From Escherichia coli (GTDB lineage: Bacteria; Pseudomonadota; Gammaproteobacteria; Enterobacterales; Enterobacteriaceae), in assembly GCF_003334355.1 (NCBI RefSeq), contig NZ_QOWP01000043.1: a stretch of 26,147 nt of DNA; one strand, written 5' to 3'. Positions 8,375 to 19,108 of this stretch are shown one piece after another (positions within the stretch are counted from its first letter, which is position 1; each line of letters starts with the position of its first letter). The notes below the pieces were generated by a model. That model saw only the letters and a list, made by a program, of their open reading frames with translations. It was not told the origin of the DNA and did no database searches. Position numbers and translations under genes: made by a program.

Positions 8375-9327
8375 GCTTGTGCCCTCGCTTCAGCCAGTAC
8401 GGAGGCAAGCGTTCGCTTCGCCAACAGGAGTTTAAAGGTGTTTTCAGCGGTGGGATGGGCGCTGGCGAACAGCGCGTCATATACGGCCTGCGCCCCCTGG
8501 GATAGCTGAGCATCCGCAGCCTCAATGCGCCAGGGCTTATGTGCTACTCCGCCCAGCGCGACGCGCCCGCTGCCGTCAGGCTGAATAATCGCCGCGACCG
8601 ATACCAGGGCAAAGGCGTAGGAGGCGCGATCGCGCACCTTACGGTAGATATGTTTTCCGCCGAGCGGCGGAGGTAACGTCACCGCAACGATAAGCTCACC
8701 GGGAAGCAGGGCGGTTTCAATGTGCGGCGTTTTCCCCGGTGGGTGATAAAAATCAGCCAGTGTGATACTGCGAGTCTTTCCCTCCGGCGTGATGGTTTCC
8801 ACCACCGCATCCAGCAACCGCATTGCGACCGCCATATCGCTCGGATGGGTGGCAATGCAGGCTTCGCTTACGCCTACCACCGCGTGCTGACGGCTAAAGC
8901 CTTCAAGCGCCGCGCAGCCGCTCCCGGGCAGGCGCTTATTGCAGGGCTGATTGGTGTCGTAAAAATAGGGGCAGCGCGTGCGCTGGAGCAGATTACCTGC
9001 GGTGGTTGCCTGATTACGTAACTGACCAGACGCGCCAGCGAGCAGGGCGCGGGAGAGTACCGCGTAATCACGACGCACGCGCTCGTGAGCCGCCAGGTCG
9101 GTGTTCCGTACCAGTGCGCCGATGCGCAGCCCACCCGCGTCGGTCACTTCAATCTTATCGAGCCCGAGCCCGTTCACATCGATAAGGTGGGTGGGCGTTT
9201 CAATTTCCAGCTTCATCAGGTCCAGCAGATTGGTCCCGCCCGCGATAAATTTTGCGCCGGGTACGCGCTGAGCGCTAAGTGCCGCCTCGGCCGGGGTGTT
9301 CACTCGTTCATAGGTAAACGCCTTCAT
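8371..9327 (-). CDS. paoB: Aldehyde oxidoreductase FAD-binding subunit PaoB
   Basis: 318-aa [46 protein letters not shown]... recognised as YagS/PaoB. Start overlaps the paoA stop (9324..9327). Confidence 0.92.
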
Positions 9328-10013
9328 GATTTTATCTCCCCCGCAGCATCTTCAATGGCGGCAAGGATGTTAGCGTATGCACCACAGCGACAGATGTTGC
9401 CGCTCATACGTTCACGGATCTCATCGACAGTTGTTTCTGGAGCGGAAACCAAATCGACCGTGACGTGACTGGGAATGCCGTCCTGAATCTCTTTTAGCAC
9501 CGCTACTGATGAGCAAATTTGCCCGGAGGTGCAGTAGCCGCACTGGAAGCCATCATGCTTGATAAAGGCCGCCTGCATGGGGTGAAGATTATCTGGTGAA
9601 CCCAGGCCTTCAATGGTGGTGATCTCGGCCCCCTGATGCATGACTGCAAGCGTCAGGCAGGCATTAAGCCTGCGACCATTGACCAGCACGGTACAGGCTC
9701 CGCACTGTCCGTGATCGCAACCTTTCTTGGTACCGATCAAATGCAGATTTTCACGCAAAGCGTCCAGTAGCGTGGTTCGGGTATCCACCTCAAGCTGCTC
9801 GGTTTTGCCGTTCACCTTCAGTGTCAGGGGCATTATCTCTGGCGCGGGTGTAGCTGCCGGAACGCTTGCCGCCAGCGTAGAATGAGGATAAACCACGGCG
9901 GTCGCCGCTGTTGCGGCGCTCACTTTAATCAGATCGCGACGGGTCAAACTTAAATCGTGCGGCTCGTGCTTCCCAACCCGATTATCTTCGGGGTATTCGC
10001 CTTGGTTGCTCAT
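9324..10013 (-). CDS. paoA: Aldehyde oxidoreductase [2Fe-2S] iron-sulfur subunit PaoA, with Tat signal peptide
   Basis: 229-aa ORF with twin-arginine signal ([17 protein letters not shown]) and cysteine clusters [10 protein letters not shown] and [11 protein letters not shown] ... CRCGAY typical of 2Fe-2S ferredoxin-like subunits. First gene of the operon, divergent from yagU. Confidence 0.92.
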
Positions 10014-10430
10014 ACCAGGCCTCCGGTATTCTAAAGGGGAAAATAAGAGTGCGTTGCGAGAGTGCTGATGCTTTTTTAAATGTTAAGCATAGTCGGCGAC
10101 AGCAGGAGGATTATTCTTAAAACGCGAATGCAGCTATGAGCCCGGCTAATAAATTCATGTTCGCCGGGATGTTGATGATGATGGGAGCTGGTTTATTGCT
10201 TTAGTTGTACGATGCAAAAACCAATAAGGAAACCTGTGATTTTCAGCTCTGCATCACCCTGCAAATCTCTGTCACTTCTAATATAAAAATAGGGAGAAAT
10301 GATGGAGCTTATATTCATTGGCGATTAGGAAACCATCTTGTTATACAAAACAATACAGTTCTTTACATTTGCCTTGTTTTATGAATACTCCTGAAGAGGT
10401 GTATAACATAATGGTACAAGCAGGGTAGAT

Positions 10431-11044: not shown

Positions 11045-11057
11045 TGCATTGAATGAT

Positions 11058-11086
11058 AAAAATGGCGCAAATACAGCGCCATTTTT
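11058..11086. terminator. Rho-independent terminator downstream of yagU (potentially bidirectional)
   Basis: Perfect 11-bp stem AAAAATGGCGC / GCGCCATTTTT with 7-nt loop AAATACA, flanked by an A-run and a T-run, starting 14 nt after the yagU stop. Confidence 0.65.
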
Positions 11087-11291
11087 ATAGGTTAAAAACA
11101 TTGCTTTTTATATTCTGATGCAGATAGTCAGTGAGTATATCGCGCTACTTCAGGATGATGTAGATCCGAAGAACGCTACAGAAGAGAGGCATTGTTGCTG
11201 GCAAATAGAAGAAGTATCGGGTTTTGTTACCCCTGAAAAACGAAGCCCCGCTATTATCGCTGGCGGGGCAGTGCAATTAATTATTGTATGT

Positions 11292-12644: not shown

Positions 12645-14256
12645 GAATCTCTCCTGAAGCGCTGACTTCGCCAAACCAGCCGTTATCATCTACCGTACGC
12701 AGCGAAATGGCGTTATCCATTGGAATCGAAAATTTGACTGTGGTCTTATCCATCTGCCCCACTTCGCCAGAGATATCAGTCCACGGTGTGGTCAGCCACA
12801 GCGCATCGGTCATATCCCGCCAGCTATCATCGCACCCGGCATCGTAGGTTTTTGTAGCTCCGTTGCGGGTAATAAAGGAAAGTGTCGCCGGGAACGGTAC
12901 TTTCGCCTTACCGTCATCGGAGCTGAAGACACAATAGGAGCGCCCGCCAATCACCTGCGCGGGTCCGGTCACCTTGATCAGCACTTCGTCGGCAGCTGTT
13001 TTACCGCTGGTGGTTACGATATAGCCGAAATCGAGTGCCGACTCGCCGCTGCCAACATATCCCTCCCGCGACGGTGTCTGAGTATATTCATCGGAGATAA
13101 TACTGATGCTGAAATCACGGGGTTTGATAATCAGCGTGTTGGAGGTAGAAAATTCATACCAGCCAGACTCCGGTGATGTGGTGTTCTGAAAGCGAAAGTT
13201 GAATAGATCTTTGGTGTTGATATCGCTGATCCCGAGGTTCACCATCTGCTTAAAGAAGTTGCTCGAGAAGAAAACATAGATCGAGTCTGCGCTCTTCATC
13301 TCGTTGAAGGTGTAGTAATAGGCGGTATTGCTCACCGGTTTCCATGAACTGCCATTCAGACTGAACTGCATATCGTACGCCCCGACGGCCGAGGCTAACG
13401 ACGAGTTGGCGATCGCCGGGAATATATGGATTGAGGTGTTGCTGAGTCCGTTTGTTTGCAGGGTATAGTTAACCATCTTACAACTTAATCCTGAACGGCT
13501 GCCGATGGTTTGCGTCCGGCAGTCGGCGTTCCCTTCGCCCAGAGTCGGTACTCCGTCGCTGTTGATAAATACTTCCGCCAGCGAGTGGGTATTTATCAAC
13601 CGTAGATTTGCTGCTTTCGTATGGGTGACGTTGCGAACATACCAGTTGCCGGAGGCCTGATCCTTACAGCGTGCGCCGCTGCTGGCGTCATAGTTCACAG
13701 AGGTCTGGCAGGCATTGATGGTCATTGTAAAGCTGCTGCCGACGGGCATTTGTTGCATATACTGGTAAAACGCGTCTGACAACATGCCGTGCATCCACTT
13801 CGCGCCGCCGCTGGTCACCGTCGCGCCATAAAATCCACTGGCGTCGGTGGTTTGCGGCAGGATAAGACTGGTGGTCATATTACACCCAGCGTACCAGTTG
13901 ATGCAGCGCAAGCCAGTTAAAGGAGATGAAACTGGTGAATTTTCCAGCCACATATCAAACTTCCAGTTGGTATAAAGGCCGGTGTTGTAACCGTTATCAA
14001 TGTAGCCGAGGCTTTGCTGATAGATGGTTCCTGAACCAGTGTATTTTAAACCGGTCCAGCGGTTGGCACCGGTCAGGCGCGGATCCAGCGCCCCGCCAGG
14101 AGTGACGAAAAAGTTGTCGTCTGAGTTGTTTTCGACAAACACAAACTCGCGTGCCGGTGCATCCGCCCAGGTTGTTTTGCTCACTGCCGCTCTGAGCGCA
14201 GTTACTGGCCAGATTAGCGCGAAAATTATCATCGTTATTAGTAGGTTAACTCTCAT
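12613..14256 (-). CDS. ecpD: E. coli common pilus tip adhesin EcpD (MatE)
   Basis: 547-aa [37 protein letters not shown]... with signal peptide; recognised as EcpD. Overlaps ecpC by 11 nt. Confidence 0.9.
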
Positions 14257-16771
14257 TCTCTTCTCCTGTCTGCGTCACCGCCGCCCACGATGAGAGGCCG
14301 CTGCAGACCACATCACCGACCCAGACGGCACCGCGCACCTGGTTGAGTTCCAGAGCCACTTCGCAGGTTTTATTGCCACTGTAGCGAAAATCGATAGTGG
14401 GGTATTTCTTATCCACGTCCATGACAAACTCGCCGTTTTCATCGGTTCGGGTTCGGCCGATATGGTTGTTAATCCGTGCGTTAGCCAGCAGTGTGCCGTC
14501 TTCCGCACGGATACGACCGGAGACGGTAACCATCTGCTTCACCTCTGGCTCAATGACAGCGACATTGCCTGGATAGAGAGTCAGACGACTTTTGCGGCCG
14601 CTGACGATATCGTAACTGTCGAGTGAGTTTTTGCTGTTCTGTAACTCCACCTCATATCTTCCATAGGGAGAGAGCGGGAGATAGTTACGCTTGCCGTTAA
14701 GCGGGAAAATCCGCCCGTTGATTTTGGCGCTGATCTGACCGTCGTCCTCCAGCCCGGTGTTGAATATCACCCCAGCGTTGCCATCAGTCCGCCCGCTGGC
14801 AGCAATGTTTTTACCCTGCCAGCCGACGCTGCCATTGGCGGTCAAGTTGGTATTGACGTAGCCGTCCGCCGCGCTATTGACGTTCAGCGTTCCGCTGGCG
14901 TAACGAGCGTCGAATTGTGCATACGCCCCGCCGCTGAGGGTTTTGTCATCACCGGTATCGCCGGAGATGGCACGTGACAGATTGGCACCAACAGTGCGAA
15001 TGGTTCCTTCATCAAACTGTTTGCGTGCTGACAGGTTTGCCATGGTGTAGCCGTTTTGATGAGTCATCCCTGCGCTAAACCAGTTGCCCAGTGGTAGCGA
15101 GAGATCGAGAGCGATATATTTTCCTGTATTGGCGTTGCTGTCGCCGTTGTTATAGCGCTGAATACCGGCCCGCAGGCCAAGCGAACCAAAGGTACCGCTG
15201 TAGACATTTTGATAGTAATCTGCCGTGTAATAATGGCTGTTGTAACGGCGGTCATCATTGTAGCTGATGCTGAATGTGCCCAGCTTCGACCACAGTGAGT
15301 TCAGGTTGAGTGTGCCGCCGATTGCACGGTTGTCGGCATCGCTACGTCGCAATTGATTGCCAATGCGGGTTTTTTCCTGATTAACCCACAGCGAACTAAA
15401 GCCTCCCGGTAGAGTGGCGCTGATGCTGCCGATGCTGCTCCATGAGCTGTCACTGGCCAGCATATTTTGCAGGTTAACGTTGATCGCCCCCCCAAGCGGC
15501 AGCGTCAGACGGGTTTCACCCACCGCCTGATTATCGTATCCATATCCCGTTGCCGCCCAGCTAAGCGTACTCAATGAGCCGGAGGTCGAGGCACCTGCTA
15601 GCCAACTCTCTTTAGCTGGTCGCGTCTTTTTCCCGTTTTCCGACCAGCGATCCATATGAAAGCTACCGCCCCATACCTGCCACGCCAGTGGTGCACCGAC
15701 GCCGCGCCCCCGGCTAAACAGCTTATTGACCCGCTGGGTGCGTTTGCTGATCACGCGACCGTTAACGATCACCTCAACTTCCACATCGTAAATCCCGTAC
15801 GGTAGACCCCGGGTATCCACTTCATGATTGCCCATAGTGAAGTTCTGAACGCTTAGTAGCCGCCCATCACGGGTGAGATGTACTTCGCCCGCCGCCGGTA
15901 AAAAGGCGATCACTGGCGTGGCTGACTGGCTGCTGTCGAAGATGGTGGAGCTGGCCTGGTTTCCCCAGGAAAGGCCGTAAATCTTCCCTGCTGAAATGGC
16001 GGTCATCGGCCCTAAGGACTGCAAGTTCCAGGTGTCGAGCATTCCACCGGCAAATCGGTGACCGGCAAAATCGCGTTCATACATCGCTTTATATAATTCA
16101 CTGTCCTGTTGACCGCTACCGATCCCGTACAGCGAGCCGTCGAGCACCACATGATGTTCGCGCAGTGCAGTAACGTTATTCAGCGACAGATAGCTGGATG
16201 TGTTGCTCCCGCCGTTACGCAACTGGTTGTTATAGACGCCCAAGTTATAGCTCAGATTACTGCTGAGGGTGTTAACACTGGACTGCCCGATGTCTTCGCT
16301 ACGTGAGCGTAGTACGGTGCCCAGCGCTTCGCGCTTGACCACTAGCTGCAGCAGCAGTTGGCGCAAGCTGAGATCCAGCTGCGCGTTGTCAGTCAGGGGG
16401 ATGGTAAGGGCCTCATTGAACGGGGCGTTGGCCAGAGCCATCAGCTGCTGTTGAGTTTGTTCGCTGACACTGGCGTTATCTTCACTCTCTTCCAGCTGTA
16501 TTTTCCGGATGCGTAGCTGTCCATCGTCCAGCCAGATAAAAGCGCTGCCGATTCGCTGATCGTCCTGGCGACCCTGGCTACCGGCGAGATGAATATAGAG
16601 CGGGACGCTCATGCCGTCCTGAAGCGCCTGACTGAAGGCCTGCGGAATAATCACCCCACCTATTTGCTGCGCACTTATGTCAGCAGCGCTGGCATCGGGC
16701 TGAACGAACAAAAAGACCATGCCGAAGGCAAACTGGGCTTTCAGTCCTGGGGAGAACCGTCGTAAAGGCAT
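14246..16771 (-). CDS. ecpC: E. coli common pilus usher EcpC (MatD)
   Basis: 841-aa [39 protein letters not shown]...; large, outer-membrane-protein-like composition; recognised as EcpC. Confidence 0.9.
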
Positions 16772-16796: not shown

Positions 16797-17465
16797 CTAT
16801 TTCACGGGAATGAACTTATCACCCTGCCAAAGTGCAACCCGTCCTTTGTTATCCGCCGTGTCCACGCGGGTAAAACGACGCGACTTGCCCGGCATCAGGT
16901 AGTAATTCTCTTTACACTCTTTACCATTGGCGGCTTTCAGGCAGGGGCCGTAGGCGAGGATCCGCAGCGTCGCATTTCCTGTATTTGTCAGGGAGCCGTT
17001 GGCGTACTGAAAGTGGTAGTTTGCCTGGCGGGGTGCGACGACCAGAATGGTGCCGATGCGGGCGGAAGCAGTGGCCACAGCGCTGCGGTTGGCATTATCG
17101 CGCTGTGCATCACTGAGGGCCTGATCAAACCAGACAATGCGGTAGTAGCGCTCTTTTTCATCTGCGGGTCCCTTATAGAAGAAGCGGATCACTTCGCTGG
17201 CTTGGGCGGGTAGCAGCAAGCTGGCGGGAGTGAGTAGCAACTCATCCGGCTTGTCCATTGAGATAACCTGCCCGTCGTCAAGCGGTGAAGAGAGCCGTTC
17301 GAGACGGATATTGATAAGGCGACCACTGTCGGTACTGTTTTTGATCGTTTTGCTCAGCGTGCTGCTGTCACTGTTCATAAACGATGATATATCGCCGACA
17401 TCCAGCGCCTGGGCCGGAGATATTCCGGAAAACAGCAGAGCGAGAGGCAGAAGGTGCTTTTTCAT
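16797..17465 (-). CDS. ecpB: E. coli common pilus periplasmic chaperone EcpB (MatC)
   Basis: 222-aa [32 protein letters not shown]... with signal peptide; recognised as EcpB. Confidence 0.9.
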
Positions 17466-17522: not shown

Positions 17523-18110
17523 TTAACTGGTCCAGGTCGCGTCGAACTGTACGCTAACGTCGCCGCTCCAGATGCCTTCCGGTAGAGTGCTGTAATCTGT
17601 TACTGCGGTGGTACCATTGGTGGTACCGCTGATGATGGAGAAGGTGAAACCATCCTGTGCGGTGGTACGATTGCTGGCATTGTAACCGTTAGCCAGCGGG
17701 CTAAGGTTGCCGCCCAGTACGCCGTTGGCGGTATCGATCATCACGGTATCGCCAGTTTTTTCGACTGCCGCGCCGTTATAATCCACGCCCACATTCAGTG
17801 TGGAACCTGAGGTATCCAACTGGGTTAATGTGTTGGTGATAAGACGTGAGGTCAGTTTAAAGGCGGTAGCCGTTGAGTCACCCTCGATAGCCACGTCAAA
17901 TAGACCTTTCTGTGAGTTAAAACCTTTAATGCCTTCGGCATACTGGAACGCCAGGCTACCGAGTGGCGTCACAACCAGCTTACTGGTGGTGTCTTTTTTG
18001 GCTGTTGCCGACCAGGTCGCTACAGCCTGAGCTGTTACGTCAGCAGCCTGCGCCACACCCATGCCGGTAAACACCGTTACCAGAGCTATTGCCAGAACCT
18101 TTTTTTTCAT
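17523..18110 (-). CDS. ecpA: E. coli common pilus major pilin EcpA (MatB)
   Basis: 195-aa [50 protein letters not shown]... recognised as EcpA. Confidence 0.92.
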
Positions 18111-18184: not shown

Positions 18185-18796
<612 letters not shown>

Positions 18797-19081
18797 TTAC
18801 AGGTGCATTCAGTTTCCTTAGTAAACCGGAAGTAAATAAGATACGTAGTACATATCAATAAAGGTTAAACGAGATTAAGTTTAATTATTTTCGATTGGGC
18901 TTAAATTTATGTTTTTTTTCCCGATGAGTGTCAATATGTGAACGGAAAAGGAATTCAATGGTTAAGTCAATATTTAGAAAAACTGAAAATATTGCTTTTT
19001 TGATAAGAAGAAAAAGACATTTGGTTTCATAAGGTTATTGGCAATATAACGTTCAATTCTTACTTGCATTTTATATTGGTC

Positions 19082-19108
19082 AGGAACTTTGCCCTGAAGT
19101 GTTAGGAA
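19082..19108 (-). promoter_or_regulatory. TTCCT-N17-TTCCT direct repeat upstream of ecpR (candidate EcpR autoregulatory box)
   Basis: Plus strand reads AGGAA-N17-AGGAA (19082..19086 and 19104..19108), i.e. TTCCT-N17-TTCCT in the ecp orientation, ~300 bp upstream of the ecpR ATG. This matches the EcpR recognition sequence as I recall it. Confidence 0.45.

What the first reader, a model, noticed from the sequence alone, without database searches (positions are those of the whole stretch)
19082..19108. TTCCT-N17-TTCCT motif far upstream of ecpR
Two TTCCT pentamers in direct orientation, exactly 17 bp apart, in the ecp strand sense match the EcpR recognition sequence as I recall it, which would support positive autoregulation of the operon from a distal site in an AT-rich leader region.
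Basis: partly seen in the sequence, partly recalled or inferred. Interest (0 to 1): 0.25.

Follow-up and report, generated by a model that had tools for sequence, protein, structure and literature searches.

The report
Known EcpR binding boxes upstream of ecp

Summary
On the ecp-sense (minus) strand, TTCCT (19108..19104) and TTCCT (19086..19082) are separated by exactly 17 bases. This is the only such pair in the window (0.04 expected). The pair lies 307-333 bp upstream of the GTG of ecpR, about -212/-186 from the inferred ecp promoter (TTGACA 18934..18929, TAAATT 18909..18904, start near 18896).

This matches what I recall of Martinez-Santos et al. 2012: [quoted passage not shown]. That paper could not be opened here. 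In O157:H7, the published strain background, these are the only two sense-strand TTCCT in the whole ecpR-ykgL spacer.

The site is present in 4987 of 5426 complete E. coli genomes. Nearly all carry one of two alleles, and both alleles keep both pentamers in the strains I inspected.

The distal pentamer is the right half of a 14-bp box, TAAGACTATTCCTA. This box matches 13/14 of the RcsAB-box consensus and fits the RcsB box perfectly.

Across Klebsiella, Enterobacter and paralogous operons, the conserved unit is this box, 16 bases, then (A/T)TCCTG. Pantoea has the same parts one base closer together. The literal TTCCT is therefore partly specific to E. coli.

This fits the published MatA-RcsB heterodimer. 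Verdict: already known, low interest.

The parts
19104..19108 (-). Distal TTCCT box. It forms the right half (positions 9-13) of the 14-bp RcsAB-like box.
   Evidence: Invariant in 7 diverse E. coli. The TC core is invariant in 14 loci from several genera.
19082..19086 (-). Proximal TTCCT box. The conserved core is TCCT plus the following G at 19081.
   Evidence: TCCTG is invariant in 14 loci. Pantoea has TCCTA one base closer.
19103..19116 (-). 14-bp pseudo-palindromic box TAAGACTATTCCTA (RcsAB/RcsB-box type).
   Evidence: One mismatch to TAAGAATATTCCTA. It is the only match with at most 1 mismatch in the window; 2 matches with at most 2 mismatches against 0.14 expected. It fits TN(G/A)GAN4TC(T/C)NA (PMC7913699). 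One such box is present at the homologous position in 12 of 13 other ecpR-type loci, against 1.36 expected in total.
19056..19062 (-). Conserved TAAGAAT, an RcsAB-box left-half-like heptamer, 19 nt downstream of the proximal TCCT. Function unknown.
   Evidence: Conserved at fixed distance in Escherichia, Klebsiella and Enterobacter. An IS1 insertion disrupts it in strain 22AR0434.
18929..18934 (-). Inferred -35 hexamer TTGACA of the ecp promoter.
   Evidence: TTGACAC is invariant across 9 orthologous loci. It lies at -38..-33 from the position 121 nt upstream of the GTG.
18904..18909 (-). Inferred -10 hexamer TAAATT. The transcription start is inferred near 18895-18896.
   Evidence: TAAAT(T/C) kept across genera.. 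The distance of 121 bp is quoted in PMC10038029, and GTG as the start codon is used in PMC3900561.
18185..18775 (-). ecpR (matA), encoding a LuxR/GerE-type HTH regulator. RefSeq starts it at ATG 18727 (180 aa). The longer ORF starts at GTG 18775 (196 aa).
   Evidence: Pfam EcpR_N plus GerE on homologues. The HTH aligns to NarL/FixJ-type regulators.
17523..18110 (-). ecpA (matB), the major pilin and first structural gene driven by the regulated promoter.

Best explanation
The pair is the upstream activating site of the ecpRABCDE (mat) operon. EcpR/MatA, a LuxR/FixJ-type helix-turn-helix protein encoded by the first gene of the operon, binds here, about 190-210 bp upstream of the ecp transcription start. 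Binding raises transcription of its own operon, which is positive autoregulation. It works against H-NS silencing of this AT-rich region, with IHF presumably bending the intervening DNA.

The site has two parts. The first is a full 14-bp RcsAB/RcsB-type box (TAAGACTATTCCTA) whose right half is the distal TTCCT. The second is a lone TCCTG half-site, the proximal TTCCT, 22 bp further on. That is about two helical turns, so both parts face the same side of the DNA.

The most likely occupant of the 14-bp box is the EcpR(MatA)-RcsB heterodimer. A further EcpR-containing unit probably sits on the proximal half-site.

Shown here: the sequence, its uniqueness in the window, its position relative to the conserved promoter, and its conservation. 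Taken from the literature: autoregulation, H-NS and IHF involvement, and the MatA-RcsB heterodimer. Inferred: which protein touches which half-site, and DNA looping.
For: The sequence and spacing are as described, and the pair is unique in the window.

The locus is ecp. EcpR homologues carry EcpR_N plus GerE domains, and the HTH aligns to NarL/FixJ regulators.

In O157:H7 the only sense-strand TTCCT in the 817-bp upstream region are this pair.

With the start 121 bp upstream of the GTG (PMC10038029; GTG start per PMC3900561), the boxes lie at -212..-208 and -190..-186. A cross-genus invariant TTGACA(C) and a TAAATT sit at the expected promoter positions.

The 33-nt site is in 4987 of 5426 complete E. 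coli genomes: 2770 exact, 2172 with a single mismatch, 49 lower. In the strains inspected, the single-mismatch class is a spacer T>C change.

The literature-defined RcsB box occurs once, at the homologous position, in 12 of 13 further ecpR-type loci, against 1.36 expected.

In 14 aligned loci, the invariant positions of the box are T1, A3, G4, T10, C11 and A14. These are exactly the upper-case positions of the published RcsAB consensus TaAGaatatTCctA (PMC3950696). TCCTG is also invariant.

Paralogous operons keep TTCCT-N17-TTCCT although the spacer and flanks are unalignable.

In the orthologue alignment, 15 of 20 motif columns are invariant against 27% overall (hypergeometric P = 7e-6).

Literature: the MatA-RcsB heterodimer activates mat independently of RcsB phosphorylation, and H-NS represses (PMC5651002, PMC7917084). 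MatA autoactivates and counteracts H-NS (PMC5962669).
Against: The three primary papers (Martinez-Santos 2012, PMC3430341; Lehti 2012, PMC3434760; Pannen 2016, PMC4732218) are not in the held library. The phrase 'two TTCCT boxes' and the EMSA evidence therefore rest on my memory of the abstract, and the published coordinates were not compared.

Within E. coli, conservation alone is weak evidence. At about 8% divergence between the two alleles, ten positions stay unchanged by chance about 43% of the time.

The first T of each pentamer is not conserved outside E. coli (A or G in Klebsiella and Enterobacter). 'TTCCT' is therefore not the precise recognition unit.

The right half of RcsAB-type boxes is thought to be the RcsB-bound half (PMC3950696). 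This leaves open whether EcpR itself touches the distal TTCCT.

No IHF consensus (at most 1 mismatch) could be located between the boxes and the promoter.

Confidence: 0.88

Rival explanations
1. The element is essentially an RcsB (homodimer or RcsA-RcsB) operator. EcpR acts only through RcsB or elsewhere, and the 'pair of TTCCT' is a by-product of an RcsB box plus an unrelated conserved element.
For: The distal pentamer lies inside a box that fits the RcsB homodimer pattern perfectly and matches 13/14 of the RcsAB consensus (PMC7913699, PMC3950696). The box, not the literal pentamer, is what is conserved across genera. The right half of such boxes is assigned to RcsB (PMC3950696).
Against: The proximal TCCTG is invariant at fixed spacing in 14 loci, yet it has no recognisable partner half-site. 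It is therefore not a second RcsB-dimer box. The composite operator travels with ecpR-type regulator genes, including paralogues and a FimA-type operon. This argues that the regulator itself reads it. The literature reports a MatA-RcsB heterodimer active without RcsB phosphorylation (PMC5651002). From memory, it also reports direct EcpR binding that depends on its HTH.
Confidence: 0.08
2. The pair is a chance co-occurrence of a common pentamer in AT-rich intergenic DNA and has no function.
For: TTCCT is frequent: 59 copies in the window. Four of 100 shuffles give a TTCCT-N17-TTCCT pair somewhere in the window. Conservation within E. coli is not decisive by itself.
Against: The core and the spacing are retained across Klebsiella, Enterobacter and Escherichia, and in paralogous operons whose flanks do not align. 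Pantoea keeps both parts with the half-site one base closer. The site lies in the expected orientation upstream of the gene for the regulator said to bind TTCCT boxes.
Confidence: 0.02
3. The element controls the divergent gene ykgL (19545..19778, + strand) rather than ecp.
For: The site lies in the shared 769-bp ecpR-ykgL intergenic region.
Against: The site is about 440 bp from ykgL. ykgL is frameshifted or absent in many strains that keep the site. In Klebsiella, Enterobacter and the tandem paralogues, the upstream neighbour is a different gene, while the operator stays at about -385 to -450 from the ecpR start.
Confidence: 0.02

Closest known systems
EcpR 'TTCCT boxes' of the ecp promoter (Martinez-Santos et al., J Bacteriol 2012, 194:5020; EHEC/EPEC)
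   Same: Same locus, same strand, two TTCCT motifs far upstream of the promoter that lies 121 bp upstream of the ecpR start codon. In O157:H7 there is no other candidate pair.
   Different: Nothing demonstrably different. I could not open the paper to compare coordinates. The window is a K-12-like allele, about 92% identical to the EHEC/EPEC upstream region. It has one spacer difference (T instead of C) and one extra A in the promoter spacer.
RcsAB box / RcsB box (Wehland & Bernhard 2000 consensus TaAGaatatTCctA; RcsB box TN(G/A)GAN4TC(T/C)NA, PMC7913699). From memory, also the RcsAB box reported in the mat regulatory region by Lehti et al. 2012.
   Same: The distal TTCCT sits in TAAGACTATTCCTA. 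This matches 13/14 of the consensus with all upper-case consensus positions matched, and it fits the RcsB box perfectly. K. pneumoniae has the 14/14 consensus at the same place.
   Different: Classical RcsAB boxes act with phosphorylated RcsB plus RcsA, close to or within promoters such as cps and flhDC. Here the partner is reported to be MatA/EcpR and is phosphorylation-independent (PMC5651002). The box lies about 210 bp upstream and is accompanied by an extra half-site 22 bp away.
BglJ-RcsB heteromer sites (PMC3950696)
   Same: An auxiliary FixJ/LuxR-type regulator pairs with RcsB on an asymmetric site that shares only the TTCykA half with the RcsAB box. It activates H-NS-silenced loci, sometimes from about 100 bp upstream.
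   Different: The auxiliary protein and the other half of the motif differ. The ecp site keeps both RcsAB halves and adds a second TCCTG.

Membership tests
EcpR (MatA) operator of the ecp/mat operon | Two TTCCT motifs on the ecp-sense strand | tested here: met
   TTCCT at 19108..19104 and 19086..19082 on the minus strand.
EcpR (MatA) operator of the ecp/mat operon | Located far upstream of the ecp promoter, which starts 121 bp upstream of the ecpR start codon | tested here: met
   With GTG 18775 as the start codon (PMC3900561) and 121 bp (PMC10038029), the start is about 18896. The boxes then lie at -212..-208 and -190..-186. A conserved TTGACA and TAAATT sit at the expected positions. The promoter position is inferred, not measured.
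EcpR (MatA) operator of the ecp/mat operon | Lies upstream of an ecpR gene encoding a LuxR/GerE-type HTH protein followed by ecpABCDE | tested here: met
   (RefSeq annotation of identical DNA). (EcpR_N plus GerE, then MatB, EcpB and usher).
EcpR (MatA) operator of the ecp/mat operon | Coordinates identical to the published boxes | not testable with these tools
   The primary paper is not held. Indirect support: in O157:H7 no other sense-strand TTCCT exists in the 817-bp upstream region.
EcpR (MatA) operator of the ecp/mat operon | EcpR binds the boxes, and their mutation abolishes activation | not testable with these tools
   Needs EMSA or footprinting and reporter fusions.
EcpR (MatA) operator of the ecp/mat operon | Conserved in ecp loci of other strains and species | tested here: met
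   Present in 4987 of 5426 E. coli genomes, nearly all with at most 1 mismatch over 31-33 nt. The core and spacing are kept in Klebsiella, Enterobacter and paralogues, and in Pantoea with the half-site one base closer. The first T of each pentamer is not conserved outside E. coli.
RcsAB / RcsB box | Match to the 14-bp consensus TaAGaatatTCctA and to TN(G/A)GAN4TC(T/C)NA | tested here: met
   TAAGACTATTCCTA at 19116..19103 matches 13/14, with all upper-case positions matched (consensus from PMC3950696 and PMC7913699).
RcsAB / RcsB box | Conservation of the box at the homologous position in related enterobacteria | tested here: met
   12 of 13 further loci have exactly one box, against 1.36 expected in total. 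The exception, L023, has TAAGGGAATTCCTA.
RcsAB / RcsB box | Bound by RcsB, alone or with an auxiliary regulator | not testable with these tools
   Reviews state that the MatA-RcsB heterodimer activates mat (PMC5651002, PMC7917084). Binding to this exact box was not checked.

The most novel reading that the evidence does not exclude
The real recognition unit may not be 'two TTCCT boxes'. It may instead be a fixed bipartite operator: an RcsB-type 14-bp box, 16 bp of spacer, then a TCCTG half-site. This unit co-migrates with EcpR-type regulator genes across Escherichia, Klebsiella, Enterobacter and Pantoea (half-site one base closer in Pantoea). It also accompanies tandem second ecp operons and at least one FimA/PapD-type fimbrial operon. 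That would imply a three-protomer or higher-order EcpR-RcsB complex with a conserved geometry, and a portable regulator-plus-operator cassette for chaperone-usher fimbriae. Parts of this, the RcsAB box in the mat region and the MatA-RcsB heterodimer, are already published. The cross-genus geometry and the extra half-site may not be.
Probability: 0.45. Interest if true: 0.3.

Novelty: already known. Interest (0 to 1): 0.12.

Why it matters
The site is the switch through which the common pilus of E. coli, a widespread adhesin and biofilm factor, escapes H-NS silencing and locks itself on by positive feedback. For this window, locating it simply annotates a known operator correctly.

There are three modest added values. 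First, the distal box is a near-consensus RcsAB/RcsB box. Second, the operator geometry is conserved across genera and paralogous operons. Third, natural variants exist that could serve as ready-made mutants: a TTCCC point variant and IS1 insertions between or next to the boxes.

Tried and rejected
1. I tried to read the three primary papers: Martinez-Santos 2012 by DOI and by PMC3430341, Lehti 2012 (PMC3434760) and Pannen 2016 (PMC4732218). None is held. Full-text searches for 'TTCCT boxes' or EcpR+TTCCT found nothing relevant. A search for ChIP-exo or binding-motif data on EcpR found nothing.

2. I looked for the IHF site. There is no WATCAANNNNTTR match in the intergenic region, and none with at most 1 mismatch in 18780..19200. 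The IHF part was a script bug and is void. The IHF site is therefore not located.

3. The simple sigma-70 scan found only one weak site, at 19194..19167, which is not at the conserved promoter. The scan requires a T at position 6 of the -10 hexamer within a 16-18 spacer. It missed TTGACA-N19-TAAATT in this K-12-type allele.

4. Rfam found no RNA family in the ecpR-ykgL spacer. The small ORFs there (43 and 48 aa) were not pursued.

5. The genome-contig scan with EcpR peptides returned only 8 loci. I extended it through protein homologues and their contigs.

6. The composite-motif shuffle test is circular, because the motif was derived from the same loci. It is cited only for specificity. The independent test uses the literature-defined RcsB box.

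7. Chance, and a role in ykgL control, were considered and rejected (see rivals).

Full report
**What is in the sequence.**
The window is the E. coli ecp (mat) locus. On the minus strand lie ecpC (14246..16771), ecpB (16797..17465), ecpA (17523..18110) and ecpR. RefSeq annotation of essentially identical DNA starts ecpR at the ATG at 18727, giving 180 aa (18185..18727). A longer ORF runs from the GTG at 18775, giving 196 aa. Upstream, on the plus strand, is ykgL (19545..19778).

The minus strand at 19108..19082 reads TTCCTAACACTTCAGGGCAAAGTTCCT. This is two TTCCT in direct orientation, in the ecp sense, with exactly 17 bases between them. It is the only such pair on either strand of the window. 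Shuffles give 0.04 matches on average, and 4 of 100 shuffles give at least one. Single TTCCT pentamers are common: 59 observed against 46 expected. Statistics alone are only mildly significant, so function has to be judged from context and conservation.

**Position relative to the promoter.**
A held paper quotes the primary study: the operon is transcribed from a promoter 121 bp upstream of the first ecpR codon and is activated by EcpR (PMC10038029). Papers from the same groups treat the GTG as the start codon (PMC3900561; a primer in PMC4103759). Counting 121 nt from the GTG (18775) gives a start near 18896.

That position sits 8 nt downstream of a TAAATT hexamer (18909..18904). A perfect TTGACA lies at 18934..18929. 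TTGACAC is invariant, and the TAAAT(T/C) hexamer is kept, in an alignment of nine orthologous upstream regions from Escherichia, Klebsiella and Enterobacter.

The pentamers therefore lie at about -212..-208 and -190..-186. This is upstream regulatory DNA, not a leader. In the same alignment the conserved ribosome-binding site and the ATG at 18727 look like the true translation start. The GTG is not conserved in Klebsiella.

**Identity with the published site.**
The primary papers could not be opened. No held paper contains both EcpR and TTCCT in the relevant sense. From memory, the Martinez-Santos et al. 2012 abstract says that EcpR activates the promoter [quoted passage not shown]. It also says that HTH mutants no longer bind and that IHF is needed to counteract H-NS.

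Held papers confirm the following:
- Positive autoregulation by EcpR/MatA.
- Help from IHF.
- Repression by H-NS.
- A MatA-RcsB heterodimer that activates mat independently of RcsB phosphorylation.

These points come from PMC10038029, PMC5962669, PMC5651002 and PMC7917084.

One deduction ties the sequence to the publication. In an O157:H7 genome, the EHEC background of that study, the only sense-strand TTCCT in the whole 817 bp upstream of ecpR are this pair. The extra sense-strand TTCCT copies in the K-12-type allele, at 18953..18949 and 19376..19372, are absent there.

**Conservation within E. coli.**
The 769-bp ecpR-ykgL spacer is found in 5059 of 5426 complete genomes. It falls into a K-12-like group (at least 95% identical) and a group about 92% identical that includes O157:H7 and ST131. 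This matches the lineage-associated promoter heterogeneity described in PMC3900561.

In seven strains spanning both groups, both pentamers are invariant and the spacer has one T>C change. A 33-nt query centred on the pair hits 4987 genomes: 2770 exact, 2172 with a single mismatch and 49 lower. I checked that the single mismatch is the spacer change only in the strains I fetched. With 8% divergence, ten unchanged positions are not by themselves strong evidence.

Rare variants exist:
- SCU-485 has TTCCC at the proximal box.
- MS20675 has IS1 inserted between the two boxes.
- 22AR0434 has IS1 just after the proximal box.
- Another isolate (30224_1#333) has IS1 in the 5' untranslated region.

**What the element really is.**
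The distal pentamer is the right half of TAAGACTATTCCTA (19116..19103). This differs at one lower-case position from the RcsAB-box consensus TaAGaatatTCctA (quoted in PMC3950696). It fits the RcsB homodimer box TN(G/A)GAN4TC(T/C)NA exactly (PMC7913699). It is the only match with at most 1 mismatch in the window.

I collected ecpR-type loci from other genomes in two ways. Eight loci came from species-representative genomes. More came through protein homologues and their contigs. The literature-defined RcsB box occurs exactly once, about 385-450 bp upstream of the ecpR start, in 12 of 13 such loci. Shuffles predict 1.36 in total.

When 14 loci are lined up without gaps, the pattern is T(A/G)AG(A/G)-N4-TC(C/T)(T/G)A, then 16 bases, then (A/T)TCCTG. 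The invariant box positions are T1, A3, G4, T10, C11 and A14. These are exactly the upper-case positions of the published consensus. TCCTG is also invariant.

Individual loci read as follows:
- K. pneumoniae has the perfect consensus TAAGAATATTCCTA followed by ATCCTG.
- The K. oxytoca group has TAAGAATAGTCTTA followed by ATCCTG.
- Enterobacter mori has TGAGAATAATCCTA followed by ATCCTG.
- Pantoea has the half-site one base closer.
- Tandem second ecp operons in the K. oxytoca complex (L014, L023, L026) keep a literal TTCCT-N17-TTCCT, although the spacer and flanks are unalignable.
- An EcpR-like regulator upstream of a FimA/PapD-type operon (L025) keeps the box (with TCCG in place of the distal TCCT) and ATCCTG at the same spacing.

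In the orthologue alignment, 15 of 20 motif columns are invariant against 27% overall (P = 7e-6). The first T of each pentamer varies outside E. coli. The conserved cores are therefore TC(C/T)TA and TCCTG, 22 bp apart (about two helical turns). A further TAAGAAT (19062..19056) is conserved 19 nt downstream of the proximal core in Escherichia, Klebsiella and Enterobacter.

**Mechanism.**
The best reading has four parts.

1. EcpR/MatA is a FixJ/LuxR-type HTH protein. Together with RcsB it occupies the 14-bp box.
2. An additional EcpR-containing unit occupies the proximal half-site on the same face of the helix.
3. From about -200, the complex relieves H-NS silencing of the AT-rich promoter region and activates the TTGACA/TAAATT promoter. 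IHF bends the intervening DNA.
4. Because ecpR is the first gene of the operon, this is a positive feedback loop.

The anatomy and conservation are shown here. Autoregulation, H-NS, IHF and the heterodimer are taken from the literature. Which protomer reads which half-site, and looping, are inference. PMC3950696 assigns the TTCCTA-type half of such boxes to RcsB, so EcpR may in fact read the other half and the proximal site. I could not locate an IHF consensus.

**Rivals.**
- A pure RcsB or RcsA-RcsB operator with no direct EcpR contact is possible but less likely. The invariant proximal TCCTG has no partner half-site, and the operator travels with ecpR-type genes.
- Chance is excluded by the cross-genus footprint.
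- Control of ykgL is unlikely. ykgL is often frameshifted, and it is replaced by other genes in other genera while the operator stays with ecpR.

**Verdict.**
This is the known EcpR/MatA binding site of the ecp promoter. The known refinement is that its distal half is an RcsAB-type box. Novelty: already known. Interest is low. The only mildly new material is the conserved bipartite geometry across genera and paralogous operons, and the natural IS1 and point variants.

Noticed in passing
window 18913..18920 (- strand), between TTGACA 18934..18929 and TAAATT 18909..18904: The poly-A tract in the promoter spacer is A8 in the window and in K-12, giving a 19-bp spacer. It is A7 (an 18-bp spacer) in M19, O157:H7, ST131 and the other E. 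coli strains aligned; the other genera also lack the extra base at this gap column, but their A runs are shorter. A 19-bp spacer could weaken the promoter in K-12-type strains.
   Followed up: partly
L016 (MS20675), L017 (22AR0434), L018 (isolate 30224_1#333); equivalent to window about 19093, about 19063 and about 18845: IS1 insertions occur in the ecpR upstream region of natural isolates: between the two boxes, immediately after the proximal box inside the conserved TAAGAAT, and in the 5' untranslated region. Their effect on ECP expression is unknown.
   Followed up: partly
L015 (E. coli SCU-485), equivalent to window 19082: A natural point variant of the proximal box, TTCCC instead of TTCCT.
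   Followed up: no
L014, L023/L024, L026 (K. oxytoca complex and relatives); L025: Some Klebsiella genomes carry a second ecp operon in tandem. It has its own ecpR paralogue (about 60% identical) and its own TTCCT-N17-TTCCT operator. In L025 an EcpR-like regulator with the same operator precedes a FimA/PapD-type fimbrial operon. In L026 the paralogue is not followed by pilin genes.
   Followed up: partly
window 19056..19062 (- strand): A TAAGAAT heptamer, like the left half of an RcsAB box, is conserved 19 nt downstream of the proximal TCCT in Escherichia, Klebsiella and Enterobacter. Further conserved blocks follow (AATAACC..ATGAAA, and a second ATTGAC near 18974). Their function is unassigned, and one of them may be the IHF site.
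   Followed up: partly
window 18727 vs 18775 (- strand): The ATG at 18727, preceded by a conserved GAGG, is conserved across genera. The upstream GTG used as the ecpR start in several papers is not conserved in Klebsiella. The 196-aa form is probably an over-extension.
   Followed up: partly
window 10106..10119 (- strand): A second, weaker RcsAB-like box, TAAGAATAATCCTC (2 mismatches, one at a strongly conserved position), lies upstream of the 229-aa ORF at 9324..10013. It may be chance.
   Followed up: no
window 11050..11249 (+ strand): Full-length match to the Rfam family IS009 (RF02111, 202 bits), downstream of the ecp operon.
   Followed up: no
window 21797..26053 (+ strand): An intact 1418-aa ORF is present (intimin/invasin-like EaeH by my reading, not checked with tools). 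The ecpR upstream region is nevertheless 99.9% identical to K-12.
   Followed up: no
E. coli plasmids: Thirteen of the matches to the ecpR upstream region in complete E. coli genomes are on records labelled as plasmids. They were not inspected.
   Followed up: no
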